Below, in pieces: positions 2,411 through 22,771 of a stretch of DNA of 23,009 nt (position 1 is its first letter; each line of letters starts with the position of its first letter). The notes under the pieces are model-generated. The model was not told where the DNA came from. It was given only the letters and a program-made list of their open reading frames with translations, and searched no databases. The stretch is from UHGV virus genome UHGV-0387053; one strand, written 5' to 3'. This DNA comes from a virus. Made by a program: the position numbers and the translations under genes.

Positions 2411-2741
2411 ATCAGCAGCAGAGCGCAAAGCCGCTCAGAGAGCCAGACAAGCTGAATCCGGTGTGCGTAAGCTGGAAATTGTGCTTGATGCTCAGGAAAT
2501 TGAAATGCTGGAGCGTAACTGTGCCACGCGTCGCCCCGGGCGTGTGCCTTACGAATTTGGTGAGTATATTGCGTTACTTATCCGCCAGGATGATGCTCGC
2601 GTGCACGGGCGTATAAAATCGATCAGCAGAAAACGTTGCGGTAAGTGCGGCGAGATAGTTCCTGTGAATTCATGCCCGTGTAATGGTGACTCGCAATGCT
2701 GGGTGACCAAAGGCTGGCATGAAACGAAATTAATAGTGTGA
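2403..2741 (+). CDS. Small putative DNA-binding protein: RHH-like N-terminal region plus C-terminal Cys-rich zinc-ribbon-like motif
   Basis: ATG 2403 overlaps the previous stop by 8 nt. Residues KLEIVLDAQEIEMLER...YEFGEYIALLIRQ fit a strand-helix-helix pattern; C-terminus has CGKCGEIVPVNSCPCNGDSQC. Stop TGA 2739-2741 lies inside the palindrome GTGACATGTCAC. Confidence 0.55.
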   Translation: MAKSAAERKAAQRARQAESGVRKLEIVLDAQEIEMLERNCATRRPGRVPYEFGEYIALLIRQDDARVHGRIKSISRKRCGKCGEIVPVNSCPCNGDSQCWVTKGWHETKLIV

Positions 2742-2749
2742 CATGTCAC
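2738..2749. promoter_or_regulatory. 12-bp perfect palindrome GTGACATGTCAC (copy 1), candidate operator or recombination site
   Basis: Read directly from sequence; an identical 12-mer recurs at 22760-22771. Overlaps the stop codon of the 2403-2741 gene and lies about 110 bp upstream of terminase small subunit. Confidence 0.5.
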
Positions 2750-2790
2750 GAGTAGATTATGCATGATGAATTTGATGGGTTTTGAATACT

Positions 2791-2816
2791 GCCGCCAACT
2801 ATGGCGGCTTTATTTT
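2791..2816 (+). terminator. Intrinsic-terminator-like hairpin plus T-tract in the leader upstream of terminase small subunit
   Basis: GCCGCC-aactat-GGCGGC followed by TTTATTTT. Position resembles a lambda tR'-type read-through terminator, but that role is inference. Confidence 0.45.
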
Positions 2817-2822
2817 GCATGG

Positions 2823-2852
2823 TACTATTACCACAACGGTAACTATTACCAC
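2823..2852. repeat. Two direct copies of ACTATTACCAC 18 bp apart, between the hairpin and the terminase small subunit start
   Basis: 11-mer at 2824-2834 and 2842-2852, seen in sequence. Could be terminase or regulator recognition repeats; function unknown. Confidence 0.4.
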
Positions 2853-2859
2853 GGTGGTT

Positions 2860-3456
2860 ATGATGCCTGCTGAACCTAAAACCTATAAACGCAAATCAAC
2901 GCAATTTAAGCCACTAACAGCAATGCAGGAGGCTTATTGCCAGTCATACATCAAAACGCCTGAAAACCAGACTCAGGCAGCGATTAACGCAGGATTCTCC
3001 CCAAATACAGCGGCAGTTAAAGCCAGTGTCATGATGCGCGATGAACGCATTCAAAAACGGATTGCCGAGTTGATGGAGGAGCGCAACAAACGAATGCGCG
3101 TCAGTGCTGATTACGTTCTCATGCGCCTGGTGGAGATCGACCAGATGGACGTGATCGACATCCTCAACGACGATGGGAGCCTTAAACCAATCCGTGAGTG
3201 GCCGAAAATCTGGCGCACTACGCTTAGTGGCTTTGATCTGTCATCGACCATCATGAACATGAACGAGGATTCGATAGAGACAATCCTCAAAAAAATTAAA
3301 TGGCCTGACAAGGTGAAGAACCTTGAGCTGATTGGTAAGCATGTTGATGTCAACGCGTTCAAAGAACGTCTGGATGTTAATGTGAATGTGACAATTGCTG
3401 ATCGCATAGCAGCAGCCAGGAAGCGACTCAAAGAACGTCAGGATGGTAATCAGTGA
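2860..3456 (+). CDS. Terminase small subunit
   Basis: ATG at 2860 or 2863 after GGTGG; the TTG 2782 start runs through the hairpin and is rejected. Segment YCQSYIKTPENQTQAAINAGFSPNTAAVKASVMMRDERIQKRI resembles terminase small-subunit families; sits immediately upstream of, and overlaps, the large subunit. Confidence 0.75.
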   Translation: MMPAEPKTYKRKSTQFKPLTAMQEAYCQSYIKTPENQTQAAINAGFSPNTAAVKASVMMRDERIQKRIAELMEERNKRMRVSADYVLMRLVEIDQMDVIDILNDDGSLKPIREWPKIWRTTLSGFDLSSTIMNMNEDSIETILKKIKWPDKVKNLELIGKHVDVNAFKERLDVNVNVTIADRIAAARKRLKERQDGNQ

Positions 3457-4922
3457 CAGATACAGCGTTATCTCCTGAAGAGCAGTTGATCGAGGATATT
3501 GCAGGGTTCACTCACGATCCGCTTGGCTATGCCCTCTATGCGTTCCCGTGGGGGGAAGAGGGGACTGAACTGGCACATGCCACCGGCCCACGTCAGTGGC
3601 AGGCTGATGCGTTCCGAGAGATACGTGATCACCTGCAGAATCCAGAGACGCGCTATCAGCCGCTTATGCTGGCACGCGCTTCTGGTCACGGTATTGGTAA
3701 ATCCGCATTCATCTCAATGCTGATCAACTGGGGCATGTCCACTTGCGAGGATTGTAAGGTCGTGGTGACCGCCAACACCGACAACCAGCTACGAACGAAG
3801 ACCTGGCCGGAAATTATCAAGTGGTCGAACCTTGCTATCACGAAAGACTGGTTTACCTGTACCGCTACCGCGATGTACAGCAATGATCCTGGACACGACA
3901 AGCGGTGGCGAGCTGACGCAATACCCTGGTCTGAGCACAACACTGAGGCATTCGCCGGACTACACAACGAGCGCAAACGCATCATCGTGGTATTCGATGA
4001 AGCGTCGAACATTGCGGATCTGGTGTGGGAAGTTGCCGAGGGTGCGCTAACGGACGAAGACACTGAGATTATCTGGGTGGCGTTCGGAAACCCGACGCGT
4101 AATACCGGACGTTTCCGCGAATGTTTCCGCAAATATAAACACCGCTGGAAAACTGCGCAGATTGACAGCCGGACGGTGGAAGGCACCAACAAACAGCAGT
4201 TGCAGAAATGGGTTGATGACTACGGGGAAGACAGCGACTTCGTTAAAATCCGTGTGCGCGGCATATTCCCTGATGCATCTGAATTGCAGTTTATCCCTAC
4301 CGGTCTTACTGACGAGGCAATGAAACGGGTGGTAACTGCTGCGCAGGTGGCACATGCTCCGGTGATAATCGGCGTTGACCCTGCATACTCCGGTGTTGAT
4401 GACGCGGTGATATACCTGCGGCAGGGGCTGCACAGTAAGGTGCTGTGGACCGGCAACAAGACCACTGACGATCTGATTATGGCAAAGCGTATCGCTGACT
4501 TTGAAGACCAGTATCAGGCTGACGCGGTGTTCATCGACTTCGGTTACGGTACCGGGCTGAAGTCAATCGGTGACGGTTGGGGGCGCACATGGCAACTTGT
4601 TCCGTTCGGTGGCGCGTCTACTGACCCGCAGATGCTCAACAAGCGTGGGGAGATGTTCAACTCATGCAAGACATGGCTGAGGCTGGGCGGCATGCTGGAT
4701 GACCAGGAAACTGCAGACGACCTGTCGGCGGCAGAGTACAAAGTTCGCGTGGACGGTAAAATCGTTATCGAACCGAAGGAAGATATCAAAGAACGACTTG
4801 GGCGTTCACCTGGTAAAGGCGATGCGCTACTGCTGACGTTTGCGTTCCCGGTAGCCAAGAAAACTAATGACCCACGGCAGCAGCAGGGCAGGGCTATAAC
4901 AGACTATGACCCATTTGAATGA
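3453..4922 (+). CDS. Terminase large subunit (ATPase/nuclease)
   Basis: 489 aa; GTG start overlaps the small-subunit stop. Walker A-like GHGIGKS and Walker B-like IIVVFDEAS are visible; size and position are typical. Confidence 0.85.
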   Translation: MTDTALSPEEQLIEDIAGFTHDPLGYALYAFPWGEEGTELAHATGPRQWQADAFREIRDHLQNPETRYQPLMLARASGHGIGKSAFISMLINWGMSTCEDCKVVVTANTDNQLRTKTWPEIIKWSNLAITKDWFTCTATAMYSNDPGHDKRWRADAIPWSEHNTEAFAGLHNERKRIIVVFDEASNIADLVWEVAEGALTDEDTEIIWVAFGNPTRNTGRFRECFRKYKHRWKTAQIDSRTVEGTNKQQLQKWVDDYGEDSDFVKIRVRGIFPDASELQFIPTGLTDEAMKRVVTAAQVAHAPVIIGVDPAYSGVDDAVIYLRQGLHSKVLWTGNKTTDDLIMAKRIADFEDQYQADAVFIDFGYGTGLKSIGDGWGRTWQLVPFGGASTDPQMLNKRGEMFNSCKTWLRLGGMLDDQETADDLSAAEYKVRVDGKIVIEPKEDIKERLGRSPGKGDALLLTFAFPVAKKTNDPRQQQGRAITDYDPFE

Positions 4923-4925
4923 TTT

Positions 4926-5774
4926 TTACTTTTGTGTTTTTGATTTTCTTTGATAGGTGGAATTTAAACCACCATTTATATTTACTAGAGGATTGTTCAA
5001 TAATGTACTGATTTCTGGATTGTTAATTCCAGTAACGCCAAATTTCTTTACGGACTCATTAAGGTCTTGTAATGATTTTAGACCTACAAACCCATTAGCA
5101 ATTGTATTATTTGTTGCCAAAGGAATGTTTTCCTTATAGGACTCATATTCGTTTTTTAAATTTTTGTGAGCTTTTTCTAGATTTTCTAGTTTAGATGTTG
5201 TTTCATCAATAACCTTAGATAATTCTAAAATACGAGCTTGTGCTGCGCGCAGTTCTGTCTCCCTCTCTTTCAATTCAGATGTGAGTTGTCCCATTCTGTC
5301 TTTTGAAAGAATTATTTCCTCTTTCATGTCTTGAATGTTTTTTTCAGCGCCTGTTTTTACTTTTTCGTAAGTAATGTCTTTTTTAGCCAGCAATCTCTGT
5401 AGCCGTGTTTCACGTTGTATTTTTCTTGCCTTCCGGTGGTTTTCGATTGAGTCATTATTATCAAGAGGTTTTGCTTGCCATACGTTAATGATATTGTTTA
5501 CCCATGGTAATAGGCAGCAGATAGTAATTACAGATAAGCATGGATAAAACATAACAGTTTTCCATGTGCTGTTATCTGAGATGTATGAAATTTTATCTAT
5601 TATATTTGATTTGCTAAAAAACAGATAAAGAAGTGATTTCCAGTTGAAGGCGCACCAGGACATAACAAAAGCACCAAGCACAGGGTTTTTGGCTCTATGC
5701 ACGGCAGTATTGGCAGTAGATAAAAACAGCTCTTTGAACGATTCGAACATACTAATTACCTTAAAGTTTTTCAT
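4926..5774 (-). CDS. AT-rich cargo gene: hypothetical membrane protein with two predicted TM helices, a central coiled coil and an Asn-rich C-terminus
   Basis: Minus-strand ATG at 5774 with AAAGG 7 nt upstream; the longer track ORF to 6032 is rejected because it crosses the terminator and tRNA. Hydrophobic segments PVLGAFVMSWCAFNWKSLLYLFF and VMFYPCLSVITICCLLPWV; heptad-like charged region KERETELRAAQARILELSKVIDETTSKLENLEKAH. Hand counts of sample lines give about 30% GC versus about 55% in flanking phage genes. Convergent with terminase, 3 bp from its stop. Confidence 0.7.
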   Translation of the reverse strand: MKNFKVISMFESFKELFLSTANTAVHRAKNPVLGAFVMSWCAFNWKSLLYLFFSKSNIIDKISYISDNSTWKTVMFYPCLSVITICCLLPWVNNIINVWQAKPLDNNDSIENHRKARKIQRETRLQRLLAKKDITYEKVKTGAEKNIQDMKEEIILSKDRMGQLTSELKERETELRAAQARILELSKVIDETTSKLENLEKAHKNLKNEYESYKENIPLATNNTIANGFVGLKSLQDLNESVKKFGVTGINNPEISTLLNNPLVNINGGLNSTYQRKSKTQK

Positions 5775-5809
5775 GATTATACCTTTAAGGTAATTTGTGG
5801 TCATCAGGC

Positions 5810-5835
5810 AAAAAAAATGCCCGGACGAACCGGGC
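5810..5835 (-). terminator. Intrinsic terminator for minus-strand transcription, downstream of the tRNA
   Basis: Plus strand reads AAAAAAAA-tgc-CCGG-acgaa-CCGGGC, so the minus-strand RNA is GCCCGG-uucgu-CCGGGC followed by a run of eight U. Confidence 0.6.
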
Positions 5836-5998
5836 GAACTGGAAGCAATGAGTTCTGCCTTCCGTGGCTGTACGGGTTTACAGCATGAAGTCATCGCAAT
5901 GGCGTCCTGCTGTAAAAAGGGCGGTGATAGTCCTTCAAGGGAAACCATCACCGCCAAGCACCTGGAACTTCTGGCATCACGGTCCTTAGGCGTGATTC

Positions 5999-6075
5999 TG
6001 GCGTGGCATGAAGGATTCGAACCTCCGACCAACCGCTTAGAAGGCGGTTGCTCTGTCCAACTGAGCTAATGCCAC
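5999..6075 (-). tRNA. tRNA-Arg (anticodon UCU)
   Basis: Minus-strand sequence GTGGCATTAGCTCAGTTGGACAGAGCAACCGCCTTCTAAGCGGTTGGTCGGAGGTTCGAATCCTTCATGCCACGCCA folds by hand into a cloverleaf: 7-bp acceptor stem, D arm GCTC/GAGC, anticodon stem ACCGC/GCGGT with loop CTTCTAA (U33, anticodon TCT, A37), T arm GGAGG-TTCGAAT-CCTTC, discriminator G and CCA end. Confidence 0.85.
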
Positions 6076-6502
6076 AACGCTGAGAGCACTTAGCCTGTTA
6101 AGGCGCCACACTTTGTCGCGGCTCCATAAATGCTCTCATCGTTGTACCCTCGTCTCTTCCGAGGCGTCACACCGAATCGCCGGGATGGTGAATCCCCGTG
6201 CGCGGAATAAAACCGCTCGACTTGCACATTCCGGCTACCTGGTTCGTTTGCCCGAGCAAGGGAGGGTGCCCCTTAAACATATCCAGACCGCTATCGGCGC
6301 ATGTGCCATACGCCGTACTGCTCAAAATAAAAGCTCACTCCACCTGTTCAATTTAACGACAAGCCAGTCAGGTTAATAACCGGAATGAACTCTTTGCTTA
6401 CCTTAAAGGTAATAATTCGTGCGTTAAATGTCAACTATCTACGATAAATAAATCATATGTGGTTAAATTGGTAATAATCTAATTGCGTACGGAGTCATTG
6501 AT

Positions 6503-6709
6503 ATGTGCATGGGTAGCTCACCATCAGTGCCTGCAACACCAGAAGTTCAGGCAGCACCACAGGAGCAGGATGCCGCTGTTGTTGATGCCCGCGACGAAGA
6601 AACACGTCGCCGTCGCGCTGCTGCTGGTCGTAGTTCTACGCTGCTTACCGGTTCTCAGGGCGACACATCAACCGCTAATACCAGCGGTAAAACGCTACTT
6701 GGTCAGTAA
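6503..6709 (+). CDS. Small virion protein, T7 gp7.3-like
   Basis: 68 aa, GGAG upstream. PEVQAAPQEQDAAVVDARDEETRRRRAAAGRSS resembles, from memory, T7 gp7.3 (...EVPQAAAQIVDVPEKE...ESGRKKARAGGKK...); it lies directly upstream of the portal gene as in T7. Confidence 0.6.
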   Translation: MCMGSSPSVPATPEVQAAPQEQDAAVVDARDEETRRRRAAAGRSSTLLTGSQGDTSTANTSGKTLLGQ

Positions 6710-6723
6710 CCGGAGTCATTGAA

Positions 6724-8403
6724 ATGGCGGAAACAACTAAAGAGCGATTGAACAAACAGTTCGCACAACTTGAAAGCGAGCGTCAGTCGTTCGAGCCGCA
6801 CTGGCGCGAGTTGAGTGATTACATCAACCCGCGTGGTTCCCGCTTTCTGACTTCTGAGGTCAACCGTAACGATCGACGCAATACACGCATTATTGATTCG
6901 ACCGGGACTATGGCGGCGCGCACTCTCGCCAGCGGCATGATGTCAGGCATCACAAGCCCCGCGCGTCCGTGGTTTCGCCTGGCTACGCCAGATCCTGAAA
7001 TGATGGATTATGGCCCTGTTAAGTTGTGGCTTGAGGCGGTGCAGAACCGCATGAACGATATGTTCAATAAGTCGAATCTCTATCAGTCTCTGCCGCAGTT
7101 ATACGGAAGCCTCGGCACATACAGCACTGGTGCAATGGCAGTGCTGGAGGATGACGAGGACATCATTCGCACAATGCCATTCCCGATAGGCAGTTACTAC
7201 CTGGCTAACTCACCTCGTGGCAGTGTGGACACCTGTTTTCGCAAGTTCTCTATGACTGTTCGTCAGCTTGTTCAGGAGTTCGGGCTAAATAACGTCAGCG
7301 AATCCGTAAAAAGCATGTGGGAAAGCGGCACCTACGAGAAGTGGATTGAAGTGATGCATTCGGTTTACCCGAACATTGACCGCGATACATCGAAGCTGGA
7401 TAGCAAGAACAAGCCATTCAAATCGGTTTATTACGAGGTTGGTGGCGATAACGACAAGTTGTTGCGTGAGTCCGGATTCGATGAGTTTCCAATTATGGCT
7501 CCGCGCTGGGAAGTTAACGGCGAAGATGTTTATGGATCATCATGCCCGGGTATGCTGGCGCTTGGACCTGTTAAGGCATTGCAGCTTCTCCAGAAGCGCA
7601 AGTCGCAGTTGATTGATAAAGCCACCAATCCGCCGATGGTTGCTCCGACTTCCCTCAAGAATCAGCGCGCCTCCCTTCTTCCTGGCGACATCACGTATAT
7701 CGATCAGATTACTGGTCAGGATGGTTTCAGGCCTGCTTATCTGGTTAACCCCAGTACAGCAGATCTGGTAGCAGACATTCAGGACACTCGCCAAATTATT
7801 AACAGCGCCTACTTTGTCGATCTGTTCATGATGTTGCAGAACATCAATACCCGCTCGATGCCTGTTGAAGCGGTGATCGAAATGAAAGAAGAAAAACTTC
7901 TGATGTTGGGGCCGGTTCTGGAGCGTCTGAACGACGAATGTCTTAATCCTCTCATTGACCGCGCTTTCTCGATGATGGTGCGTAAAAACATGCTGCCGCC
8001 ACCGCCTGACGCGATGGAAGGTATGCCCCTGAAGGTCGAATACATTTCCGTCATGGCTCAGGCGCAGAAGTCTATCGGCCTGTCCAGTCTGGCGTCTACG
8101 GTCAACTTCATTGGTCAACTTGCGCAAGCGAAACCAGAAGCTCTCGACAAACTCAACGTTGATCAGGCGATCGATGCATTCGCTGATATGTCCGGAGTGT
8201 CTCCAACCGTCATTGTTCCGCAGGAACAGGTTGAGCAGGCTCGCCAGCAACGGGCACAGCAACAACAGCAGCAACAAATGATGGCGATGGGGATGGCGGC
8301 GGCACAGGGGGCCAAGACGCTAAGCGAAGCTAAAACTTCGGATCCGAGTGTGTTGTCAGCTATGGCGAATGCAGTTAGTGGTCAGGGTGGGCAATCACAA
8401 TGA
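6724..8403 (+). CDS. Portal (head-tail connector) protein, T7 gp8-like
   Basis: 559 aa. C-terminal QQRAQQQQQQQMMAMGMAAAQGAK matches my memory of the T7 gp8 C-terminus (QQKMAQQSMQMGMDNGAAALAQGMAAQ); size and position are consistent. Confidence 0.85.
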   Translation: MAETTKERLNKQFAQLESERQSFEPHWRELSDYINPRGSRFLTSEVNRNDRRNTRIIDSTGTMAARTLASGMMSGITSPARPWFRLATPDPEMMDYGPVKLWLEAVQNRMNDMFNKSNLYQSLPQLYGSLGTYSTGAMAVLEDDEDIIRTMPFPIGSYYLANSPRGSVDTCFRKFSMTVRQLVQEFGLNNVSESVKSMWESGTYEKWIEVMHSVYPNIDRDTSKLDSKNKPFKSVYYEVGGDNDKLLRESGFDEFPIMAPRWEVNGEDVYGSSCPGMLALGPVKALQLLQKRKSQLIDKATNPPMVAPTSLKNQRASLLPGDITYIDQITGQDGFRPAYLVNPSTADLVADIQDTRQIINSAYFVDLFMMLQNINTRSMPVEAVIEMKEEKLLMLGPVLERLNDECLNPLIDRAFSMMVRKNMLPPPPDAMEGMPLKVEYISVMAQAQKSIGLSSLASTVNFIGQLAQAKPEALDKLNVDQAIDAFADMSGVSPTVIVPQEQVEQARQQRAQQQQQQQMMAMGMAAAQGAKTLSEAKTSDPSVLSAMANAVSGQGGQSQ

Positions 8404-8696
8404 CAGATTACGAAGACGATCAACTGAAAGAAGAAAACGCCCGTAAGCAACGTGACATGGCGCAGCGTGAAATTGATGACATTCGCTTTGTCATGAGCAG
8501 TGAACAGGGGCGTCGCGTTGTCTGGTCGGTGCTGGAGAAAGGCCGTGTGTTTTCCGCCATCTCACCGATGGACGCTATGGCAATGGCATTTAATGAGGGG
8601 CAACGCAATCTGGCGCTGGAACTGTTTCAGCGCGTTATGGCGCATTGCCCTGAACAGTATTTGAAGATGGCCAAGGAGGCCAGTGAACAGGAGTGA
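8400..8696 (+). CDS. Hypothetical small protein between portal and scaffold
   Basis: ATG overlaps the portal stop (ATGA); 98 aa, acidic; no recognised motif. Confidence 0.55.
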   Translation: MTDYEDDQLKEENARKQRDMAQREIDDIRFVMSSEQGRRVVWSVLEKGRVFSAISPMDAMAMAFNEGQRNLALELFQRVMAHCPEQYLKMAKEASEQE

Positions 8697-8698
8697 TC

Positions 8699-9394
8699 AT
8701 GAATTTATTTGAGCGTTTGCTGTATCGCCGTCTTTGCAATGAGCAACCAGTCGATGGTGGAGCAGCTCCGGCTGCGTCAGAACCGTCAGCGCCTGCAGGT
8801 GATAACCCTGCTCCAGTTGGTGATCCATCACAACAGGAAGGTGATAAGCCACAACCTGTTGCTGATGGCGATAAACCTGCTGATGACAAAAAGCCTGAAA
8901 ACGATAAGCAGGATGAAAAAAAGGACGGCGATAAACCAGAGGGTGCGCCTGAGAAGTACGAGTTTCAGGCTGCCGAAGGCGTAGAGCTGGATACAGAAGC
9001 GTTGAATGAATTCGAGCCGGTGGCGCGAGAACTTAACCTGACCAACGAGCAAGCGCAAAAGCTGGTTGATGCTTATCCGAAGATTCTGGCAGGTGTTCAG
9101 CAGCGCCAGGCAGAAGCCTGGCAGAAAACAACCGAGCAGTGGGCTGCGGATGTAAAAGCTGACAAAGAAATCGGTGGCGACAAGTTGATTTCTAACCTTA
9201 GCGCCGCACAGCGTGCGCTTGACCAGTTCGGGACACCTGAACTCAAAGAATATCTGAACACCACCGGGCTGGGTAATCACCCTGATCTGGTCAAAACGTT
9301 CGTGAAAATCGGAAAGGCGATGTCTGAAGATGGCATGGTCACCGGTGGTAATGAAGGCCAGCGTAGTGCGGCCGAAGTGCTCTATGGCAAATAA
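8699..9394 (+). CDS. Putative scaffolding protein
   Basis: AGGAG upstream of ATG 8699. Acidic, Pro/Asp/Lys-rich low-complexity N-terminal half (DGDKPADDKKPENDKQDEKKDGDKPEG), helical C-terminal half; located between portal and capsid. Confidence 0.6.
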   Translation: MNLFERLLYRRLCNEQPVDGGAAPAASEPSAPAGDNPAPVGDPSQQEGDKPQPVADGDKPADDKKPENDKQDEKKDGDKPEGAPEKYEFQAAEGVELDTEALNEFEPVARELNLTNEQAQKLVDAYPKILAGVQQRQAEAWQKTTEQWAADVKADKEIGGDKLISNLSAAQRALDQFGTPELKEYLNTTGLGNHPDLVKTFVKIGKAMSEDGMVTGGNEGQRSAAEVLYGK

Positions 9395-9408
9395 GAGAGG
9401 AAATGACA

Positions 9409-10395
9409 ATGGCTGTTAAAGGCTTAACTGCGCTAACGATGGCTGACTGGGGTAAGCGCGTCGATCCAAACGGGAAAGTCGATAAGATTATCGAGCTTCT
9501 CGGTCAAACTAACCCGATCCTTCAGGATATGCCTTTTGTCGAAGGGAACCTTCCTACCGGACACCGAACCACCATTCGTTCTGGTTTACCTTCAGCTACC
9601 TGGCGTTTGCTGAACTATGGCGTACAGCCAAGCAAATCAACCACAGTGCAGGTAACCGATTACGTTGGCATGCTGGAAACCTATGCTGAAGTCGATAAGT
9701 CACTGGCTGATCTGAACGGCAATACCGCTGAATTCCGCCTGTCTGAAGACCGCGCATTTATTGAAGCGATGAATCAGCAGATGGCGCAGACGCTGTTTTA
9801 TGGTGATTCCAGCGTTAACCCTCAGCAGTTTATGGGACTGTCCTCCCGCTATTCCAGCCTGTCTGCGGGTAATGCTCAGAACATCATTGATGCTGGTGGC
9901 ACGGGTACAGATAACACCTCAATCTGGTTAGTGGTGTGGGGCGAAAACACCGTGCATGGCATCTTCCCGAAAGGGCAGAAGGCTGGCATCCAGATGGAAG
10001 ATAAAGGCCAGGTGACACTGGAAGATGCTAATGGCGGCAAGTACGAAGGCTATCGCACCCATTACAAATGGGACAACGGACTTGCTCTGCGTGACTGGCG
10101 TTATGTTGTTCGCATTGCAAACATCGATGTCAGCAATTTTTCAGAACCTTCCTCTGCCGCAAATATTGCGAAGTTGATGGTTAAAGCACTGCATCGCATT
10201 CCAAACCGTGGAATGGGCCGCCCGGTGTTCTACATGAACCGCACTGTAGGCCAGGCTCTTGATCTGCAATCTCTGGAGAAAACATCTCTGGCTATCAGCG
10301 TAAAAGAGACTGAAGGCGAGTGGTGGACTTCATTCCGTGGTGTACCAATCCGTGAAACTGATGCGCTTCTGGAAACAGAAGCCCGCGTGGTGTAA
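9409..10395 (+). CDS. Major capsid protein (by position and size)
   Basis: 329 aa; GAGAGG upstream of ATG 9409 (ATG 9403 is also possible). Follows the scaffold gene; family not recognised with certainty. Confidence 0.7.
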   Translation: MAVKGLTALTMADWGKRVDPNGKVDKIIELLGQTNPILQDMPFVEGNLPTGHRTTIRSGLPSATWRLLNYGVQPSKSTTVQVTDYVGMLETYAEVDKSLADLNGNTAEFRLSEDRAFIEAMNQQMAQTLFYGDSSVNPQQFMGLSSRYSSLSAGNAQNIIDAGGTGTDNTSIWLVVWGENTVHGIFPKGQKAGIQMEDKGQVTLEDANGGKYEGYRTHYKWDNGLALRDWRYVVRIANIDVSNFSEPSSAANIAKLMVKALHRIPNRGMGRPVFYMNRTVGQALDLQSLEKTSLAISVKETEGEWWTSFRGVPIRETDALLETEARVV

Positions 10396-10414
10396 CGCCT
10401 GTTATTAACCTGTG

Positions 10415-10434
10415 GGTCGTAACAGACCCACTAA
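10415..10434 (+). other. Hairpin immediately after the capsid gene (GTGGGTC-gtaaca-GACCCAC), no U-tract
   Basis: 7-bp perfect inverted repeat seen in sequence, 20 nt after the capsid stop. Possible RNA processing or stability element; not a classical terminator. Confidence 0.35.
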
Positions 10435-10446
10435 TGGAGAAAGAAG

Positions 10447-10884: not shown

Positions 10885-10894
10885 GGTGATATCG

Positions 10895-11230: not shown

Positions 11231-11246
11231 GCCTCGCGGATCAGAC

Positions 11247-11268
11247 AAGGGGCTTCGGCCCCTTTATT
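11247..11268 (+). terminator. Intrinsic terminator inside the virion module (UUCG tetraloop hairpin plus T-tract)
   Basis: AAGGGGC-ttcg-GCCCCTT followed by TATT. Placement after the capsid-proximal genes parallels T7 T-phi. Confidence 0.75.
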
Positions 11269-11280
11269 GCAGGAGTGTAT

Positions 11281-14680: not shown

Positions 14681-15144
14681 TGATCGATGTTCAAATTATT
14701 CCCGCTACCGAAGAGCATCTTCAGATGATTTTGCCGGATGTTCGTCAGGCTGATATTGACGAACTGTATGCGGTATCGCTGATGACTACCGAAGATGCGC
14801 TGCGCGTTGGTCTTCGCACTGCGACTATGGCCTGGTCAGGGTTCGCGAACGGAGAACTGGTAACCATGTTTGGTGTATCTCCGGCGTCAATGATCGGTGG
14901 CAATGGTACGCCCTGGCTGGTAGGAACCAGCCGTATTGAAAAATATCAGAAGACATTTCTGCGCCACTGCCGCCCTGTATTGCAGCAGATGCTGGCAGTT
15001 TATCCGCGCCTGGAAAACTACGTCGACGAGCGAAACCATGTTGCCAAAGCATGGCTGCACTGGCTTGGATTCAGGCTTGAAGAAGCCGCGCCTTATGGTG
15101 CTCTTGGTCTTAATTTCCACAGATTTCACATGGAGAGAAAATAA
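14680..15144 (+). CDS. Internal virion protein, gp13-position
   Basis: 154 aa, translationally coupled (TGATG); assignment by synteny only. Confidence 0.55.
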   Translation: MIDVQIIPATEEHLQMILPDVRQADIDELYAVSLMTTEDALRVGLRTATMAWSGFANGELVTMFGVSPASMIGGNGTPWLVGTSRIEKYQKTFLRHCRPVLQQMLAVYPRLENYVDERNHVAKAWLHWLGFRLEEAAPYGALGLNFHRFHMERK

Positions 15145-15719
15145 TGTGCGATCCGGTTATTGCTGGTGGCGCAATGCTCGCCATGAGTGGCATTCAGGCA
15201 TACACCCAGTACCAACAGGGAAAGTATGCCTCGAAGGTTGCAGAAGCGAACGCAGATATAGCCACAGCTCAGGCAAATGATGCAATAAACAGAGGTAACG
15301 CTGAAGCTGAGCAACGACGCAGAGAGACCCGACAGCGGCTTGGTACACAGGCGGCGACAATGGGGGCTACCGGCGCTGATTTATCTACAGGTAACGCGCT
15401 GGATATATTTGGCGACACTGCCCAGTTTGGCGCTCTTGATTCGCTGACGACGGTGAATAACGCGCAACGCGAGGCTTACGGTTATCAGGTTCAGGCTGCC
15501 AACTATAAAGCAGAAGCCAGTTCAGCCCGTAAACAGGGGAATGTGGGAGCAGCAACAACATTGCTCACTGCGCCTCTGAAGGCATACGGTGCGTACCAGA
15601 TGTTTGGTGGGACGTGGAGTCCGTTCTCTAAAGGAAGTACATCTAGTGGTGGGACGCCAATGTTATCTAACTCAGGTTTTATGAATTCTGACTCCCGATT
15701 CAAAATAGGAGGTTACTGA
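15144..15719 (+). CDS. Internal virion/ejection protein, T7 gp14-like
   Basis: 191 aa (T7 gp14 is about 196 aa); begins MC followed by a hydrophobic stretch; Ala/Gln-rich like gp14; coupled start TAATG. Confidence 0.65.
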   Translation: MCDPVIAGGAMLAMSGIQAYTQYQQGKYASKVAEANADIATAQANDAINRGNAEAEQRRRETRQRLGTQAATMGATGADLSTGNALDIFGDTAQFGALDSLTTVNNAQREAYGYQVQAANYKAEASSARKQGNVGAATTLLTAPLKAYGAYQMFGGTWSPFSKGSTSSGGTPMLSNSGFMNSDSRFKIGGY

Positions 15720-18466: not shown

Positions 18467-21400
18467 TGCCGATATATGAACAGGATCCTAAAGAGTTGCT
18501 TGGCGAGGATATTCAGCAAATAGCAGCACCTGATGACAGTAATTTCTATATGGAAACACCTTCTTTGCTTTCTGCTGTGAACCCATTTACCAGTGATCAA
18601 CGCGTTCAAAGGTCTAGACAAGCAGCATTTCGTATAGATAACACGCTGGGTAGCTTTATTGCCAGTGCTCCTTTCAGTCAGTTTGACAGGGTTGAAGGAT
18701 ATAACCCATTTGATAACGATGCAGCAGATATTAAAGGCTATGAAGATTTTGCAGATTCGTTTATCAACTCCGGTTCGCATGAAGAAACAATGGCAATTAA
18801 ACATCGAATCGATAAGCAAAGAACAGATAGAGAATATCTATCTGAAATGGGTGGTGCTGGTACTATTTCAAGCTTAGCAATGGGAATGATAGACCCGGTT
18901 AATGTGGCTGCAATGTTTATCCCTGTAGGGGCGGTAGCGCGTGGAGGAAGTATTGCTGAGACGGCAGGGCGTTTTGCCCTGGCGAATGCTGCTGGTGGGG
19001 GAGTATCAGAAGCCGCATTACAGGCCACTCAGGAAGCTCGCTCACCGATGGAGAGCGTATCGAACGTTGTTGTTGATGCTCTCGTTGGTGGGATCCTTGG
19101 TGCTGGTGCACAGCTACTTGCTGGACCTAGCGCGCGCGAGGCAGTGGTTAACTCAGTAGGTAATCATTTGCGAGGTATGGATTCTCCTCAAAGCATTGGT
19201 GCAGCTCAGGTTTTCAATACCACACTCGATCAGGAACAGCTCGCTGGACTTGGACTTGCTAACAAAACGTTGAGTGTCACTCCTGCTGGCCGCTTGGCTC
19301 AATCACCATCTCTTGTCTCCCGTCAGATTAACCAGCAGCTTGCCGAAAATAACTATTTCTTCGCCAAAAATGATGAGGGGTTGGCTACGTTTACGGCAGT
19401 CGAGACTAAGATTAAGCAATACGACGCCATGCTTTATAAGCAGATGGAAGCCACTCGTGATGCTTACCAGCAGTACAGCAAATCTGTTAGCGCCCGCGGC
19501 GTGAAGAGGATGAACTTTATTGATTTCAATGAAGCTGTTGGCATGGCTATGCGCCGTGGTGATCAGAGTGATATTCCTGAGGTTTCACAAGCAGCCGCCA
19601 GAATCCGCCCCATTTTCGAGACCACAAAAGCCCGTATGCAGGAACTGGGGATCCTTCCTGAGGATATCGATGTCGTGACGGCGAAAAGTTATCTTCCCCG
19701 CATTTATAAGTTCGATAAGATACTTTCCGACCGCACTGAATTCAGAGGGCGAATTGCCAACTGGATACAAGGGATTAGTGCCAAAGGTGCTGACAAAGCA
19801 GGTCAGCGAATTGAAAGGATAAATTCATTGCTAAAAACTGCAGAGGAATCGGCACCGCGCGCTGATGCTCTCGCTAGTGAAATCGCTGAAGCGGAGAAAT
19901 GGTCTGGTAAAAAAATTCTACTCATGGAAGAACTGGATAAACGAAATAAGCTTATATCTCAGGAGACTGACACACAGGCGCGTCTTACAAGAATAGAAAA
20001 AGAGTTGGCCGAGACTTCATCAGAAAAACTTCAGGCAAGAATGATGAAAGAAAGCTCTGACCTTAAAACACGCCTTGATGATATAGCGCAGGCAAAGAGT
20101 GAGCTTCCTGTCTATCAGCGCCATATGGAGTTGCTGGATAATCCACGGAAATATCGTTCTGAGCTTCGCCGACTGCAAAAACGGGCAAATTCAACCACAA
20201 GGCTGAATGCAAGCCGCGAACGAGCACTGAAGCAGATGGAGCCTCTATCCCGAGAGGAAGCAGAGGACGCTGCTGACGAGATCGTGAATAAAATAATAGG
20301 CGCACCTTCCGGGCTTGTACCAGCCGATATTATCCCAGAGAGACTCGTTGGTCGGGCTGGTTTCACTAAAAGCAGAACGCTGCTTATTCCTGATGAGCGT
20401 ATAGAAGATTTTCTTGAATCAGATGTTAACTACATCATGGAAAGTTATCTCCGGCAGGTGGCACCAGAAATTGAGCTGACTGCGCAGTTTGGCCGTAAAG
20501 ATATGGGGGAGCAAATCCGTCAGGTTAGTGAGGAATATACCCGGCTAATAAAAGAGGCTAAAACACCTAAACGACGTGCAGTTCTTGAGAAGCAACGGGA
20601 GGCTGATATTAGGGATATTACGGCTATGCGTGATCGACTGCTTGGTACTTACGGTGCACCTCAAGATCCACGCAGTTTCTTTGTTCGTGCCGGGCGAGTT
20701 GCTAGGAATATTAACTTCCTCCGTTTGCTTGGTGGAATGACTGTCTCCGCTGCAACTGATCTGATGCGACCGATGATGCAGCATGGCCTGAGAAAATCTC
20801 TCGGACCAATGGTAAGCATGCTTAAAAATATGGACTCAGTGAAAATTGCAACCAGGGATTTGCGAGAAATGGCCGTTGGGCTTGATTATGTCCTGTCTAC
20901 GCGTACAAAGGCTATAGCGGATCTTACTGACCCCTATAGCCGGAGAAGCGCCGCTGAGCGAGGTCTGAACTGGATGACGCAGAAATTCGGTAACTGGACG
21001 CTGATGAATCAGTGGAACAGCGCACTTAAATCATGGTCCGGGATGATAGTGCAGTCGAGGATACTTGACGCGGCTCGCCAAGTTTCTGCTGGTGGCACGC
21101 TCTCCAAAAGTGAAATGCGGAAGATGGCACAGGTCGGCATCAATGAAGATGTTCTGCGCCGAATCGGGGAGCAATTCGGGAAGCACGGAGAGGATATGGA
21201 CGGGCTGTTAACCGGGCATAGTCATCTGTGGGATGACCGTTTCGCTAGAGAGATTTTCCAGTCTGCAGTGCTGAAAGATGTAGACTCAGTGATTGTAACG
21301 CCTGGCGTAGGTGATACACCGCTGTTTTTTAGTAAAGAAGGCTGGAAGATGATCACGCAGTTCAAAACGTTTATCTTCGCACAGCATAACAGGGTGCTAG

Positions 21401-21855
21401 TATCTGGTATCCAGCAGGGCGATGCTGCATTCTATCTTGGTGCGCTTGGCACGATTGCGCTTGGCTCAATGGTCTATATGATGAAACAGAAGTTAAGCGG
21501 TCGCGATATCGACTACAGCTGGAATAACCTTGTGAAAGAGGGGATCGACCGGGGCGGAATGCTTGGCTGGCTCTCTGAGCCGCTGAATACCGTTGAGAAC
21601 ATAAGCGGCGGTAGGTTTGGTCTTGGCGCGATGTTTGGTGCGCCTCCGGTATCAAGGTTTCAGAGTCGTAATGCTATTGGTGCTTTACTTGGTCCTACCT
21701 TTGATCTTGGCGGTGATGCCGCGACGGTTGCGAATGGTGTACTTAACGGAGAATTTGACAGCCAGCAAACCCACGCGGTCCGTAAAATGCTACCTTTTCA
21801 GAACCTGTGGGCGATATCACCGTTACTAAATAAAGTTGAAGAGCAGATGAAATAG
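18466..21855 (+). CDS. Largest internal virion/ejection protein, gp16-position
   Basis: 1129 aa, coupled start TAATG; long helical/coiled-coil regions; last gene of the coupled chain. No lytic transglycosylase motif recognised. Confidence 0.7.
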   Translation: MPIYEQDPKELLGEDIQQIAAPDDSNFYMETPSLLSAVNPFTSDQRVQRSRQAAFRIDNTLGSFIASAPFSQFDRVEGYNPFDNDAADIKGYEDFADSFINSGSHEETMAIKHRIDKQRTDREYLSEMGGAGTISSLAMGMIDPVNVAAMFIPVGAVARGGSIAETAGRFALANAAGGGVSEAALQATQEARSPMESVSNVVVDALVGGILGAGAQLLAGPSAREAVVNSVGNHLRGMDSPQSIGAAQVFNTTLDQEQLAGLGLANKTLSVTPAGRLAQSPSLVSRQINQQLAENNYFFAKNDEGLATFTAVETKIKQYDAMLYKQMEATRDAYQQYSKSVSARGVKRMNFIDFNEAVGMAMRRGDQSDIPEVSQAAARIRPIFETTKARMQELGILPEDIDVVTAKSYLPRIYKFDKILSDRTEFRGRIANWIQGISAKGADKAGQRIERINSLLKTAEESAPRADALASEIAEAEKWSGKKILLMEELDKRNKLISQETDTQARLTRIEKELAETSSEKLQARMMKESSDLKTRLDDIAQAKSELPVYQRHMELLDNPRKYRSELRRLQKRANSTTRLNASRERALKQMEPLSREEAEDAADEIVNKIIGAPSGLVPADIIPERLVGRAGFTKSRTLLIPDERIEDFLESDVNYIMESYLRQVAPEIELTAQFGRKDMGEQIRQVSEEYTRLIKEAKTPKRRAVLEKQREADIRDITAMRDRLLGTYGAPQDPRSFFVRAGRVARNINFLRLLGGMTVSAATDLMRPMMQHGLRKSLGPMVSMLKNMDSVKIATRDLREMAVGLDYVLSTRTKAIADLTDPYSRRSAAERGLNWMTQKFGNWTLMNQWNSALKSWSGMIVQSRILDAARQVSAGGTLSKSEMRKMAQVGINEDVLRRIGEQFGKHGEDMDGLLTGHSHLWDDRFAREIFQSAVLKDVDSVIVTPGVGDTPLFFSKEGWKMITQFKTFIFAQHNRVLVSGIQQGDAAFYLGALGTIALGSMVYMMKQKLSGRDIDYSWNNLVKEGIDRGGMLGWLSEPLNTVENISGGRFGLGAMFGAPPVSRFQSRNAIGALLGPTFDLGGDAATVANGVLNGEFDSQQTHAVRKMLPFQNLWAISPLLNKVEEQMK

Positions 21856-22296
21856 CTATTCACAATTAGTGATGGCGTATGTATCAAATATATTGCCATC
21901 ACTAAATACATACCTATATTCAATCTCTCCGCCAAGGTGAATAAATGCTTTCATTTGCCTGTTGGAGCAAATGCTCGATTTTGAATAATTTCGCATTACA
22001 CTCTTTAATTTATTTTCTAAGGTTACATCACCGTTATAAACTTTTGATAAATAGCTGTTGTTGTAATTAAGATGCGCTACAACTAAAAGTTTGTTTAGTA
22101 TTGCATTTATTGAAACAATAGACATATTATCATTCAATTTTATGGGAAGTGACTTTCCTGCTTCTGATGCAATTTTGTTTGCATGTGCACACATATCCTC
22201 ATTTATTAAATTCTTAAAACATATGTCGTTTGCAAACGAAAAAATTGGTAGGATAAACAAAACGGTAGCTGTAATAGCGTGCATCGGCTTAATCAT
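21856..22296 (-). CDS. AT-rich cargo gene: secreted/periplasmic Cys-containing protein
   Basis: Minus-strand ORF; N-terminus MIKPMHAITATVLFILPIFSFA is signal-peptide-like (an alternative start 12 nt downstream is possible); cysteines spread through the mature part; visibly AT-rich; abuts the gp16-like stop. Confidence 0.6.
   Translation of the reverse strand: MIKPMHAITATVLFILPIFSFANDICFKNLINEDMCAHANKIASEAGKSLPIKLNDNMSIVSINAILNKLLVVAHLNYNNSYLSKVYNGDVTLENKLKSVMRNYSKSSICSNRQMKAFIHLGGEIEYRYVFSDGNIFDTYAITNCE
21866..21905. repeat. 11-bp perfect inverted repeat with 18-nt spacer (TTAGTGATGGC ... GCCATCACTAA)
   Basis: Seen in sequence 11 nt after the gp16-like stop, inside the 3' end of the convergent minus-strand gene. 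Operator-like or hairpin; no U-tract. Confidence 0.4.
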
Positions 22297-22308
22297 TAGG
22301 TGACCTTT

Positions 22309-22758
22309 ATGTTCAAGAAGATGATCAACAGATTAATCGGTGGTAAGGAGGTTAGCAATAAAATTCAACCTCTTATCTTTAAGGATAACTTTTCAGCTTT
22401 TGAGTATGCGTGTAAGTATCTTGACACAAGCCTTTCAGCCAATAAACCAATGCCAGCCATCATCATACCTGGTCCAAGTGGGGAACAGCCAGTTTTGCTA
22501 GATTCTGGAAGACAAAGGGCAATGCTGAAGGTGTGCTCAGCTGATGGTGGATTTTTTGTTATTGCCGATTCATCTTACAGCAAAGGACCAAAGCTGAGGA
22601 TTGGTGATCTTGTTGCTTGGTTGCCTGTGAGTTATGCCGAAGAATTAACGGATAAAATAGAAGATCCTCGCTCCGCTATGGTTGGCTTTATATTGGGAAC
22701 CATTCATCCTGAACTAACATCTACTGGCTGGAAGGGTAAAGAAAGATTTCGCAAGTAG
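22309..22758 (+). CDS. Hypothetical cytoplasmic protein, divergent from the secreted-protein gene
   Basis: ATG 22309 after AGGTGA; 149 aa; AT-rich 5' part, more GC-rich 3' part; stop TAG 22756-22758 is followed directly by the palindrome and a terminator. Confidence 0.55.
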   Translation: MFKKMINRLIGGKEVSNKIQPLIFKDNFSAFEYACKYLDTSLSANKPMPAIIIPGPSGEQPVLLDSGRQRAMLKVCSADGGFFVIADSSYSKGPKLRIGDLVAWLPVSYAEELTDKIEDPRSAMVGFILGTIHPELTSTGWKGKERFRK

Positions 22759-22759
22759 C

Positions 22760-22771
22760 GTGACATGTCAC
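22760..22771. promoter_or_regulatory. 12-bp perfect palindrome GTGACATGTCAC (copy 2)
   Basis: Identical to the 2738-2749 copy; again starts within 2 nt of a stop codon and precedes a hairpin/T-tract. Confidence 0.5.

What the first reader, a model, noticed from the sequence alone, without database searches (positions are those of the whole stretch)
2738..22771. Identical 12-bp perfect palindrome GTGACATGTCAC occurs twice, each at a stop codon and before a hairpin/T-tract, bracketing the packaging and virion module
An exact 12-mer is not expected to recur by chance in 23 kb, and this one is also a perfect palindrome, so it looks like a dimeric protein-binding site. Copy 1 (2738-2749) overlaps the stop of an RHH/zinc-ribbon protein gene and lies upstream of a hairpin/T-tract and the terminase genes. 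Copy 2 (22760-22771) directly follows the last cargo gene and abuts a terminator. Each half-site contains GTGACA, a near-consensus sigma70 -35 hexamer, in both orientations. Possibilities are a shared operator (perhaps for the RHH protein), paired sites for looping or antitermination control, or module-boundary recombination sites.
Basis: seen in the sequence. Interest (0 to 1): 0.55.

Follow-up and report, generated by a model that had tools for sequence, protein, structure and literature searches.

The report
Phage regulator's conserved 12-bp operator
The repeated palindrome GTGACATGTCAC is real. It is one copy set of a motif, GTGAC-NN-GTCAC, that travels with a small uncharacterised phage DNA-binding protein across many unrelated phages, so it is most likely that protein's binding site, placed at gene and operon ends.

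Summary
In detail: GTGACATGTCAC occurs exactly at 2738 and 22760. Copy A contains the TGA stop of the 112-aa gene 2403-2741. Copy C lies 1 nt after a cargo gene's stop and abuts a terminator.

A recurring palindromic 12-mer is rare, though (16 of 2000 simulations).

The window is an epsilon15/phiV10-like (Uetakevirus) prophage. Relatives in Escherichia, Salmonella and Enterobacter keep the 12-mer at up to three sites while the flanks diverge.

The motif generalises to GTGAC-N2-GTCAC and tracks the 112-aa protein family (phrog_536; epsilon15 gp49, N15 gp46):
- 46 of 49 diverse lineages, down to 28% protein identity, carry it.
- In 25 of them the gene's TGA stop sits inside the motif.
- 11 of 11 complete genomes with the gene have 1-3 copies; lambda, P2 and P22 have neither gene nor motif.
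- Other spacings stay at background.

The protein models as a ribbon-helix-helix fold plus a zinc ribbon.

Best reading: the motif is this protein's operator, marking transcription-unit and cargo boundaries, probably as a roadblock or insulator. Binding and its effect are untested. The half-sites match matS, but the spacing differs, so it is not matS.

The parts
2738..2749 (.). Palindrome copy A (GTGACATGTCAC). The TGA stop of the regulator gene (2739-2741) lies inside it.
   Evidence: The same register (xxG-TGA-C) is found in 25 of 49 diverse lineages, including N15, phiKO2 and Yersinia P2-like phages.
2403..2741 (+). Gene for the 112-aa RHH + zinc-ribbon protein (phrog_536; epsilon15 gp49 / phiV10 p55 / N15 gp46 family). 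It is the candidate binder of the palindrome.
2759..2785 (+). 8-codon remnant (ATGCATGATGAATTTGATGGGTTTTGA) of a ~70-aa gene that sits directly after palindrome A in about 25 relatives.
   Evidence: L008 10358-10569.
2791..2816 (+). Intrinsic-terminator-like hairpin GCCGCCAACTATGGCGGC plus TTTATTTT, 42 nt after copy A and before terS.
   Evidence: Conserved in E15 and Tyrion; E15 has it in tandem.
22760..22771 (.). Palindrome copy C, 1 nt after the stop of cargo ORF 22300-22758.
   Evidence: The orthologous copy is present in TL-2011b, phiV10, PAS61, phiv142-3, VB_ST_E15 and Tyrion despite unrelated flanks on the upstream side.
22772..22799 (+). Intrinsic terminator AGGCCGCTTTCGCGGCCT plus TGTTTTT, abutting copy C. 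It has a T-tract on the + strand only.
21856..22758 (.). Variable cargo slot (two ORFs, no family hits) whose right-hand boundary is palindrome C.
   Evidence: Homology to relatives stops at 21855 and resumes at 22750-22770. No Pfam, PADLOC or NCBIfam hits.
4917..5808 (.). Replaced cargo slot after terL. In relatives this position holds a terminator hairpin plus palindrome copy B plus a minus-strand moron. Here copy B is absent.
8452..8463 (.). Degenerate copy GTGACATGGCGC inside gene 8400-8696 (GTGACATGGCAC in relatives). Probably a coding coincidence and not counted as a site.

Best explanation
GTGAC-NN-GTCAC, here GTGACATGTCAC, is the cognate DNA operator of the phage-encoded 112-aa ribbon-helix-helix plus zinc-ribbon protein made from 2403-2741.

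Inferred mechanism:
- A dimer recognises the two invariant GTGAC half-sites. The conserved N-terminal basic helix (ERKxAQRxR) is the likely reader of the half-sites, with the RHH sheet over the variable centre.
- The gene is the last gene of an early operon, so the protein accumulates late in the early phase.
- It then occupies one to three sites placed immediately after stop codons: its own stop (A), the junction between terL and a reverse-oriented moron (B, lost in this window), and the end of the virion operon (C).
- Bound there, it acts as a transcription-unit boundary element. It would block or attenuate elongating RNA polymerase from either direction. It would reinforce one-directional intrinsic terminators at convergent junctions, insulate cargo genes, and limit its own expression, as LacI does at the operator overlapping the 3' end of lacI.

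What is shown: the gene-motif linkage, the exact spacing, the positions and the fold. What is inferred: binding, dimer geometry, and a repressive or roadblock outcome.
For: Linkage:
- 80 close loci hold 132 exact copies, all at site A (79 of 80) or site B (53).
- 42 genome loci from many Enterobacterales genera hold 58 copies in 787 kb, against <1 expected.
- Homologues at 28-38% identity still carry GTGAC(AG/AC/GC)GTCAC.
- 46 of 49 lineages have at least one copy, and in 25 the gene's TGA lies inside the motif.
- 11 of 11 complete genomes with the gene have the motif; lambda, P2 and P22 have neither.
- 28 of 120 random viral chunks containing CGTGACATGTCACG hold the gene, although only 151 of 50,697 phage records do.

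Specificity: spacing N2 is found 151 and 77 times, against at most 4 for any other spacing and 0 for the inverted arrangement at N2.

Conservation beyond coding or flank: the 12-mer stays exact in E15 and Tyrion while flanks diverge. N15 and phiKO2 share three orthologous copies. The motif is kept at synonymous positions inside ydaT-like genes.

Position:
- 41 of 95 copies have a terminator-like hairpin starting within 45 nt, against 233 of 3000 random positions.
- Copies hug stop codons.
- In N15 and phiKO2 one copy lies in the antirepressor-control region between gene 33 and the terminator that precedes the ant genes. I place it by eye about 13 nt downstream of a candidate promoter; no promoter is annotated there in the record. 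Another copy lies inside repA.

Anecdote: EC.W1-9 has a frameshifted gene and lacks sites B and C.
Against: - No binding experiment exists and no literature was found on the motif or the family.
- The negative control is only three genomes.
- About three quarters of sampled motif-bearing chunks show no gene within the fetched piece, and whole contigs could not be read.
- The half-sites do not co-vary with the protein, so a conserved host factor is not excluded by co-evolution. The centre dinucleotide is not always uniform within a genome (L095, phiv142-3).
- RHH proteins usually read DNA with the beta-sheet at the dyad, whereas here the centre is the variable part.
- If late genes are transcribed by read-through from the early operon, a roadblock at A would be counter-productive, and no conserved late promoter was found between A and terS.
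- Site layouts differ widely between phage types, so the regulatory outcome may not be uniform.
Confidence: 0.55

Rival explanations
1. Same protein-site pair but with a positive outcome. The protein is the late-gene switch: a Q-like, site-loaded antiterminator or an activator. It binds the palindrome and lets RNA polymerase read through the terminators that follow copies A and C into terS and the downstream late genes.
For: - In Uetakeviruses and marine/Vibrio relatives the gene is the last early gene, directly upstream of lysis or terminase genes, and no Q-type gene is annotated there.
- L130, L137 and K233 show the order gene, palindrome, promoter, ~100-nt leader, terminator, holin. That is the pR'/tR' layout.
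- Copies A and C precede terminators.
- There is a weak profile match of residues 48-109 to the DksA/TraR zinc finger, which binds RNA polymerase (E 0.02).
Against: - The distance from palindrome to promoter varies (53, 97 and 103 nt) and no fixed promoter geometry exists at other sites.
- N15, phiKO2 and Chlobot have their own Q (and N) genes and still keep the family and its sites, partly inside repA and in the leftward operon.
- On the + strand, site B lies after the hairpin rather than before it.
- TraR is not among the structural matches.
Confidence: 0.15
2. The element works in RNA. The transcribed GUGACAUGUCAC forms a small hairpin in 3' UTRs and intercistronic spacers. The protein's arginine-rich N-terminus, or an RNase, recognises it to control termination, mRNA stability or translation of the next cistron.
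For: - All copies lie in transcribed DNA, just after stop codons and often 8-30 nt before the next RBS and start codon (N15 gene 47, Chlobot, L008, L100, L114, K233 terS).
- Variation is confined to the would-be loop centre.
- The N-terminal ERKAAQRARQ resembles arginine-rich RNA-binding motifs (from memory).
- The hairpin would stack on the terminator stem at C.
Against: - The hairpin is only -1.2 kcal/mol, no better than shuffles.
- No compensatory stem changes are seen. The stem bases are invariant rather than merely paired.
- The protein has a DNA-binding RHH fold.
- Copies with asymmetric centres occur in both orientations relative to transcription (N15 repA copy versus the other two).
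- There is no Rfam family at either site.
Confidence: 0.12
3. A host protein of the enteric/Vibrio clade binds the palindrome, for example MatP (matS GTGACRNYGTCAC), SlmA (GTGAGTACTCAC) or an unknown factor. The phage gene merely tends to carry a copy.
For: - The half-sites are identical to matS, and the outer GTGA/TCAC is identical to the SlmA site.
- The half-sites are invariant across very divergent phage proteins.
- In the phage collection the family is seen only in Vibrio, Aeromonas and enterobacterial phages. From memory, that is the clade that has MatP.
Against: - The spacing is strictly 2 bp, and matS-type N3 sites are at background in the same loci.
- The central 4 bp differ from the SlmA site.
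- Lambda, P2 and P22, which infect the same hosts but lack the gene, have no copy.
- Extra copies elsewhere in a genome appear only together with the gene.
- Prophages avoid matS (PMC3603311).
Confidence: 0.07
4. The palindrome is a recombination 'linker' or module-boundary sequence. It would be a short shared patch, or the target of a nuclease or recombinase, at which cargo genes are exchanged, with no regulatory role.
For: - Mosaic junctions fall at the palindrome. Homology resumes at 22750-22759.
- There are at least 10 unrelated flanks on the cargo side of site B, each with a reverse-strand stop codon 4 nt away.
- Extra genes are inserted right after A.
- These phages encode RecET-type recombinases.
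Against: - 12 bp is very short for homologous exchange.
- The adjacent conserved terminator hairpins give longer homology and would explain the junctions equally well.
- Exact conservation in unrelated phage types, inside genes (repA, ydaT) and at the regulator's own stop codon is not expected of a scar or linker.
- No recombinase or nuclease co-varies with the motif.
Confidence: 0.08
5. Chance recurrence of a 12-mer.
For: Recurring 12-mers are common in the window: 79 observed, about 41 expected.
Against: - A recurring palindromic 12-mer appeared in 16 of 2000 simulations.
- There are hundreds of orthologous and paralogous copies in relatives.
Confidence: 0.01

Closest known systems
MatP / matS (Ter macrodomain organiser of E. 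coli and relatives)
   Different: The spacer is 2 bp rather than 3, and N3 sites are at background in these phages. There is no sequence homology (hhalign probability 0.4%; no Pfam MatP hit). The phage protein has no four-helix bundle or C-terminal coiled coil, and it has a zinc ribbon instead. It is phage-encoded, with a site at its own stop codon.
SlmA-binding sequence (GTGAGTACTCAC)
   Same: It is a 12-bp perfect palindrome with identical outer GTGA...TCAC (PMC3020112).
   Different: The central four bases differ (GTAC versus CATG). SlmA is a TetR-family host protein. Nothing links it to the phage gene.
Phage and plasmid RHH repressors and their operators (P22 Arc/Mnt, CopG, ParD/TacA antitoxins, AmrZ)
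   Different: Those operators overlap the promoter of the regulated operon and are usually bound by two dimers. Here a single 12-bp dyad lies at the 3' end of the gene and at operon ends. The protein carries an extra N-terminal basic helix and a C-terminal zinc ribbon.
LacI operator O3 at the 3' end of lacI (roadblock, truncated mRNA, tmRNA tagging; Abo et al. 2000, recalled from memory)
   Same: The operator overlaps the end of the regulator's own gene, giving feedback through blocked elongation.
   Different: In lac this is a side effect of an auxiliary operator. Here the stop-codon-embedded site is the family's most conserved feature. No experiment has been done.
Lambda Q/qut and N/nut antitermination
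   Same: The gene sits at the early/late junction in several phage types. Marine relatives show a promoter-leader-terminator layout downstream. Lambdoid Providencia prophages carry one copy in each early operon, as with nutL and nutR.
   Different: There is no Q or N domain. The site is not at a fixed place in a promoter. It is a DNA dyad rather than boxA/boxB. It coexists with true Q and N genes in N15, phiKO2 and Chlobot.
Boundary or 'linker' sequences of mosaic lambdoid genomes (modular evolution; recalled from memory)
   Same: A short conserved sequence at gene borders where mosaic junctions fall.
   Different: The linkers described are family-local and tied to neighbouring genes. This 12-mer is shared across unrelated phage types and tracks one protein family.

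Membership tests
Ribbon-helix-helix DNA-binding proteins | beta-alpha-alpha fold | tested here: met
Ribbon-helix-helix DNA-binding proteins | Dimer inserts a two-stranded sheet into the major groove of a dyad or repeat operator | not testable with these tools
   No multimer or DNA modelling, and no binding assay, was available. A dyad-symmetric candidate operator does exist.
MatP/matS | 13-bp site GTGACRNYGTCAC | tested here: not met
   The spacer is 2 bp. There is no matS in the window, and N3 sites number 0 and 2 in 1.67 and 1.03 Mb of family loci.
MatP/matS | MatP protein domains (four-helix bundle, RHH, coiled coil) | tested here: not met
   No Pfam hit. hhalign against E. coli MatP gives probability 0.4%. 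Only the RHH part superposes.
Q-type antitermination (Q/qut) | Q-family protein, with the DNA site embedded in or next to a promoter that has a promoter-proximal terminator | tested here: not met
   There is no Q domain. The distance from palindrome to promoter varies between 53 and 103 nt. The promoter-like hit at A is not conserved. Separate Q genes exist in N15, phiKO2 and Chlobot.
DksA/TraR C4 zinc-finger proteins | CxxC-x17-CxxC finger after a long helix that enters the RNA polymerase secondary channel | tested here: inconclusive
REP / IS end / longer dispersed repeat | The 12-mer is the core of a longer repeated unit | tested here: not met
   Identity between the two copies stops at 14 nt. 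Flanks are unrelated across sites and across genomes.
cos/pac terminase site | Coincides with virion DNA ends or the packaging start | tested here: not met
   The Tyrion and phiV10 records are cut inside copy A. However, Tyrion is circularly permuted and terminally redundant (PMC5754475). Multiple copies per genome and copies in cos phages such as N15, far from cos, also argue against this reading.
Known RNA families | Rfam covariance-model match | tested here: not met
   Only a tRNA at 6002-6075 reaches the gathering score.

The most novel reading that the evidence does not exclude
The RHH/zinc-ribbon family and GTGAC-N2-GTCAC would form a previously unrecognised, widely shared phage 'punctuation' system. 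In this reading a MatP-like DNA-reading head is fused to a DksA/TraR-like zinc finger that touches RNA polymerase. It sits on sites just after stop codons and decides, site by site, whether polymerase stops or continues. That would make one-directional terminators conditional and bidirectional, shut off early and cargo genes, and define the slots where morons are exchanged. The one-base difference from matS would keep it orthogonal to the host's Ter organiser.
Probability: 0.15. Interest if true: 0.8.

Novelty: new variant of a known kind. Interest (0 to 1): 0.6.

Why it matters
The gene is annotated only as 'hypothetical' or 'transcriptional regulator', and it has no Pfam or NCBIfam model. 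I found no paper on the 12-mer or on N15 gene 46.

If the pairing holds, it gives a function-defining handle (protein plus exact operator) for a family found in epsilon15-like, N15-like, P2-like, lambda-like and many Vibrio phages. It would also suggest how Uetakeviruses, which lack annotated N- or Q-type regulators, set the limits of their transcription units and insulate cargo genes.

The near-identity to matS, one base shorter, raises a testable question about cross-talk with, or deliberate orthogonality to, the host chromosome organiser MatP. The motif is also a practical annotation mark for operon ends and cargo slots in these prophages.

Tried and rejected
- **cos or pac end.** This was suggested because the phiV10 and Tyrion records are cut inside copy A. 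Rejected: Tyrion is circularly permuted, and there are several copies per genome.
- **Sigma-70 promoter with GTGACA as the -35.** There is one hit at A, but it rests on a deletion remnant and is absent in the L008-type and other variants. A minus-strand hit inside ydaT in L114 is not conserved in Xenorhabdus or Rouxiella.
- **True matS or MatP homology.** Rejected on spacing and sequence.
- **Stable RNA structure.** Rejected.
- **Co-variation of the centre dinucleotide with genome.** It looked promising (N15/phiKO2 TG, Yersinia GC, Uetakevirus AT), but mixed centres within L095, phiv142-3, K233 and L137 make it unusable.
- **First structure prediction** with a shallow alignment gave pLDDT 61 and was discarded.
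- **Structural neighbours:** Foldseek against PDB and BFVD gave nothing useful, and afdb50 was unavailable.
- **Tracing gene-less motif contexts** (L138 and L142 types) to complete phage genomes failed, with no BLAST match.
- **Literature searches** for the motif, Uetakevirus late transcription, RHH/zinc-ribbon late regulators and N15 gene 46 found nothing relevant.
- **Cargo proteins** gave only coiled-coil noise in PADLOC and NCBIfam.


Full report
**1. The observation.**
GTGACATGTCAC occurs exactly twice, at 2738-2749 and 22760-22771. The only near copy (2 mismatches) is at 8452.

Copy A contains the TGA stop (2739-2741) of ORF 2403-2741. It is followed 42 nt later by a hairpin plus T-tract (2791-2816) and then by terS. 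Copy C starts 1 nt after the TAG of ORF 22300-22758 and directly abuts the terminator 22772-22799.

The two copies share only 14 nt, as an inverted pair, so they are not part of a longer repeat. Rfam finds nothing at either site.

79 12-mers recur in the window, against 40.6 +/- 8.3 in Markov simulations. A recurring perfect palindromic 12-mer is unusual, however (16 of 2000 simulations).

**2. What the window is.**
The window is the early-distal and virion part of an epsilon15/phiV10-like (Uetakevirus) prophage of Escherichia. Tyrion, a member of the group, is circularly permuted with terminal redundancy (PMC5754475). The fact that the phiV10 and Tyrion records are cut inside copy A is therefore a record convention, not a physical DNA end.

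**3. Conservation in relatives.**
Seven complete relatives from Escherichia, Salmonella and Enterobacter carry the exact 12-mer at up to three positions:
- A: the stop of the gp49-like gene.
- B: directly after the terL terminator hairpin, before a reverse-strand moron.
- C: after the last gene of the virion operon, 1-3 nt before a terminator.

The flanks have diverged in VB_ST_E15 and Tyrion, yet the 12-mer is exact.

In 80 IMG/VR loci (1.37 Mb) there are 132 exact copies, all at A (79 of 80) or B (53). The flank of B on the cargo side is hypervariable. In most variants a reverse-strand stop codon lies 4 nt from the palindrome.

About 25 loci have an extra ~70-aa gene inserted immediately after A. 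The window keeps an 8-codon remnant of it at 2759-2785. This also disposes of the only promoter-like hit.

In the window, homology to relatives resumes at 22750-22759, and the B slot (4917-5808) has been replaced without a palindrome. The sites therefore do coincide with mosaic junctions.

**4. The decisive result: gene-motif linkage.**
The product of 2403-2741 belongs to phrog_536 and has no Pfam or NCBIfam model.

*Forward direction (motif given gene).*
- A scan of one genome per species found 42 loci, 40-84% identical, in Citrobacter, Klebsiella, Pantoea, Erwinia, Providencia, Xenorhabdus, Rahnella, Yersinia and others. They hold 58 copies of GTGAC-NN-GTCAC in 787 kb, where <1 is expected.
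- Yersinia P2-like prophages use GTGACGCGTCAC.
- Homologues at 28-38% identity from marine and Vibrio phages still carry GTGAC(AG/AC/GC)GTCAC shortly after the gene, or a few kb away.
- Over 49 lineages, 25 have the gene's TGA inside the motif in the same register. Five more have the motif within 20 nt of the stop, four within 300 nt, one has it inside the 3' end of the gene, 11 have it only elsewhere in the locus, and three have none.
- N15 gene 46 and its phiKO2 homologue each have three copies of GTGACTGGTCAC at orthologous positions: the gene's stop, the antirepressor-control region, and inside repA.

*Presence and absence.* Eleven of eleven complete genomes with the gene have 1-3 copies. 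Lambda, P2 and P22 have neither gene nor motif.

*Spacing.* The spacing is strict: N2 occurs 151 and 77 times, against at most 4 for any other spacing.

*Reverse direction (gene given motif).* 28 of 120 viral-contig chunks (mean 8.5 kb) selected only for CGTGACATGTCACG contain a family gene. Only 151 of 50,697 phage records hold it at all.

**5. The protein.**
With a 56-sequence alignment, AF2 gives pLDDT 92. The model has an N-terminal basic helix (5-19), an extended segment, two helices (30-42, 52-74), and a Cys-rich C-terminal knuckle.

Sequence-level homology to MatP is not detectable. A weak profile match of the C-terminal half to the DksA/TraR zinc finger (E 0.02) is only a lead.

The most conserved residues, R8 and R13, lie in the N-terminal helix. 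That fits invariant half-sites with a variable centre.

**6. Where the sites sit.**
- Copies hug stop codons. 41 of 95 have a terminator-like hairpin starting within 45 nt, against 7.8% of random positions.
- At B and C the palindrome lies on the side of a one-directional terminator where transcripts from the opposite strand would meet hairpin and then palindrome without a T-tract. This is my reading of the sequences.
- In lambdoid Providencia and Xenorhabdus prophages one copy lies inside the 3' end of a ydaT (cII-like) gene. There it is kept at synonymous positions and codes RDMSR. Another lies between cistrons of the leftward operon.
- In N15 and phiKO2 one copy lies between gene 33 and the terminator that precedes the antirepressor genes, and one lies 620 nt into repA.
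- The gene itself is at the distal end of early operons. In Uetakeviruses and marine phages that is the Q position, but N15, phiKO2 and Chlobot have their own Q or N genes.

**7. Mechanism.**
*Shown:* a strict 12-bp dyad with invariant half-sites, tightly linked to an RHH/zinc-ribbon gene and placed at gene and operon ends.

*Inferred:* the protein dimer binds it. The most economical outcome consistent with all the layouts is a block to elongation. This would amount to feedback at its own stop codon, reinforcement of terminators from both directions at convergent junctions, insulation or shut-off of cargo, antirepressor and early genes.

My estimates are about 0.75 for the protein-operator pairing and about 0.35 for the roadblock outcome. 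I give 0.55 for the combined statement, with the caveat that the outcome is the weak part.

Rivals are:
- a positive, antiterminator-like outcome;
- an RNA-level element, though the hairpin is only -1.2 kcal/mol and no compensatory changes are seen;
- a host factor such as MatP or SlmA, argued against by the spacing and by the gene-less control phages;
- a pure recombination linker.

**8. Comparison and novelty.**
The site is matS minus one central base, and it shares its outer bases with the SlmA site. It fails the matS definition on spacing, and the protein fails MatP membership on sequence and domain content.

It works like an RHH repressor-operator pair. Three features are unusual: an operator embedded in the regulator's own stop codon, dispersal to operon ends, and an extra basic helix and zinc ribbon. 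No paper in the searchable library mentions the motif or the family's function.

I rate it a new variant of a known kind, with interest 0.6.

Noticed in passing
window 2821-2834 and 2838-2852: Direct repeats GGTACTATTACCAC / GGTAACTATTACCAC lie between the terminator and the terS ATG (2860). They are conserved in E15 and Tyrion. They may be a pac/TerS site or an activator site. ACCAC-containing repeats also flank the late promoter in marine relatives.
   Followed up: partly
window 2759-2785; L008 10358-10569: The window carries an 8-codon remnant (start fused to end) of a ~70-aa gene that is intact directly after palindrome A in about 25 IMG/VR relatives.
   Followed up: yes
window 5999-6075 (-): A tRNA-Arg(tct) gene lies in the cargo slot between terL and the portal gene. 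The mechanical 368-aa ORF 4926-6032 overlaps it, so the real cargo ORF is shorter. That ORF gives only coiled-coil-type weak hits (LmuB, JetC, SMC).
   Followed up: partly
window 2429-2452 vs 21561-21584: A 24-nt inverted repeat (22 of 24 complementary) links the 5' part of the regulator gene, which codes AAQRARQA, to the 3' part of the 1129-aa tail gene. This is rarer than chance would suggest, and it is unexplained.
   Followed up: partly
L088 ~10350-10400, L089, L095, L096, L103/L104 (just after the regulator gene): In Citrobacter, Pseudocitrobacter, Kluyvera and Symbiopectobacterium prophages, a strong sigma-70 promoter with a LexA box (CTGT-N8-ACAG) over its -10 follows within a few nt of palindrome A (in Symbiopectobacterium, which has no adjacent palindrome, of the regulator gene's stop). 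This points to an SOS-controlled cargo gene in that slot.
   Followed up: no
L130 8530-8600; L137 10560-10610; L260 33280-33340: Marine and Vibrio relatives have ACCACAAAA(A/C/T)G(T/A)(G/C)-type repeats abutting the -35 of a promoter. The promoter is followed by a ~100-130-nt leader, a terminator and then holin. This is a Q-type late-promoter layout with no recognised Q gene.
   Followed up: partly
L158 5040-5140; L228 2010-2100; L166/L196/L213: Unrelated, mostly high-GC viral contigs carry arrays of GTCAC/GTGAC half-sites every ~10 nt around a full palindrome. This looks like an iteron- or operator-type system using the same half-site.
   Followed up: no
L005 (EC.W1-9) 5945-6290, 8460, 25720: This relative has a 1-nt deletion in an A-run of the regulator gene, which removes the zinc-ribbon part. 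It also lacks palindromes B and C. The deletion could be a natural loss of function or a sequencing error.
   Followed up: partly
L114 6138; L108, L113, L117-L119, L122; L184, L192, L203: The palindrome is embedded in coding DNA as the peptide RDMSR. This occurs in ydaT (cII-like) genes and inside some distant members of the regulator family itself. Another recurrent coding context is a CVTCHGKG zinc-finger motif (L143 type), which is probably a coincidence of coding.
   Followed up: partly
L258 (N15) 28550, 33237, 39269; L265 (phiKO2) 8784, 13664, 19541: N15 and phiKO2 share three orthologous copies of GTGACTGGTCAC. One lies immediately 5' of a sequence that looks like the cA-type immunity RNA of the antirepressor locus (GGGGTAA...TTACCCC; my reading, not annotated), and one lies inside repA. 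These are ready-made test cases in a well-studied phage.
   Followed up: partly
window 8452-8463: A degenerate copy, GTGACATGGCGC (GTGACATGGCAC in relatives), is conserved inside the small gene after the portal gene. It is probably only a coding feature.
   Followed up: partly
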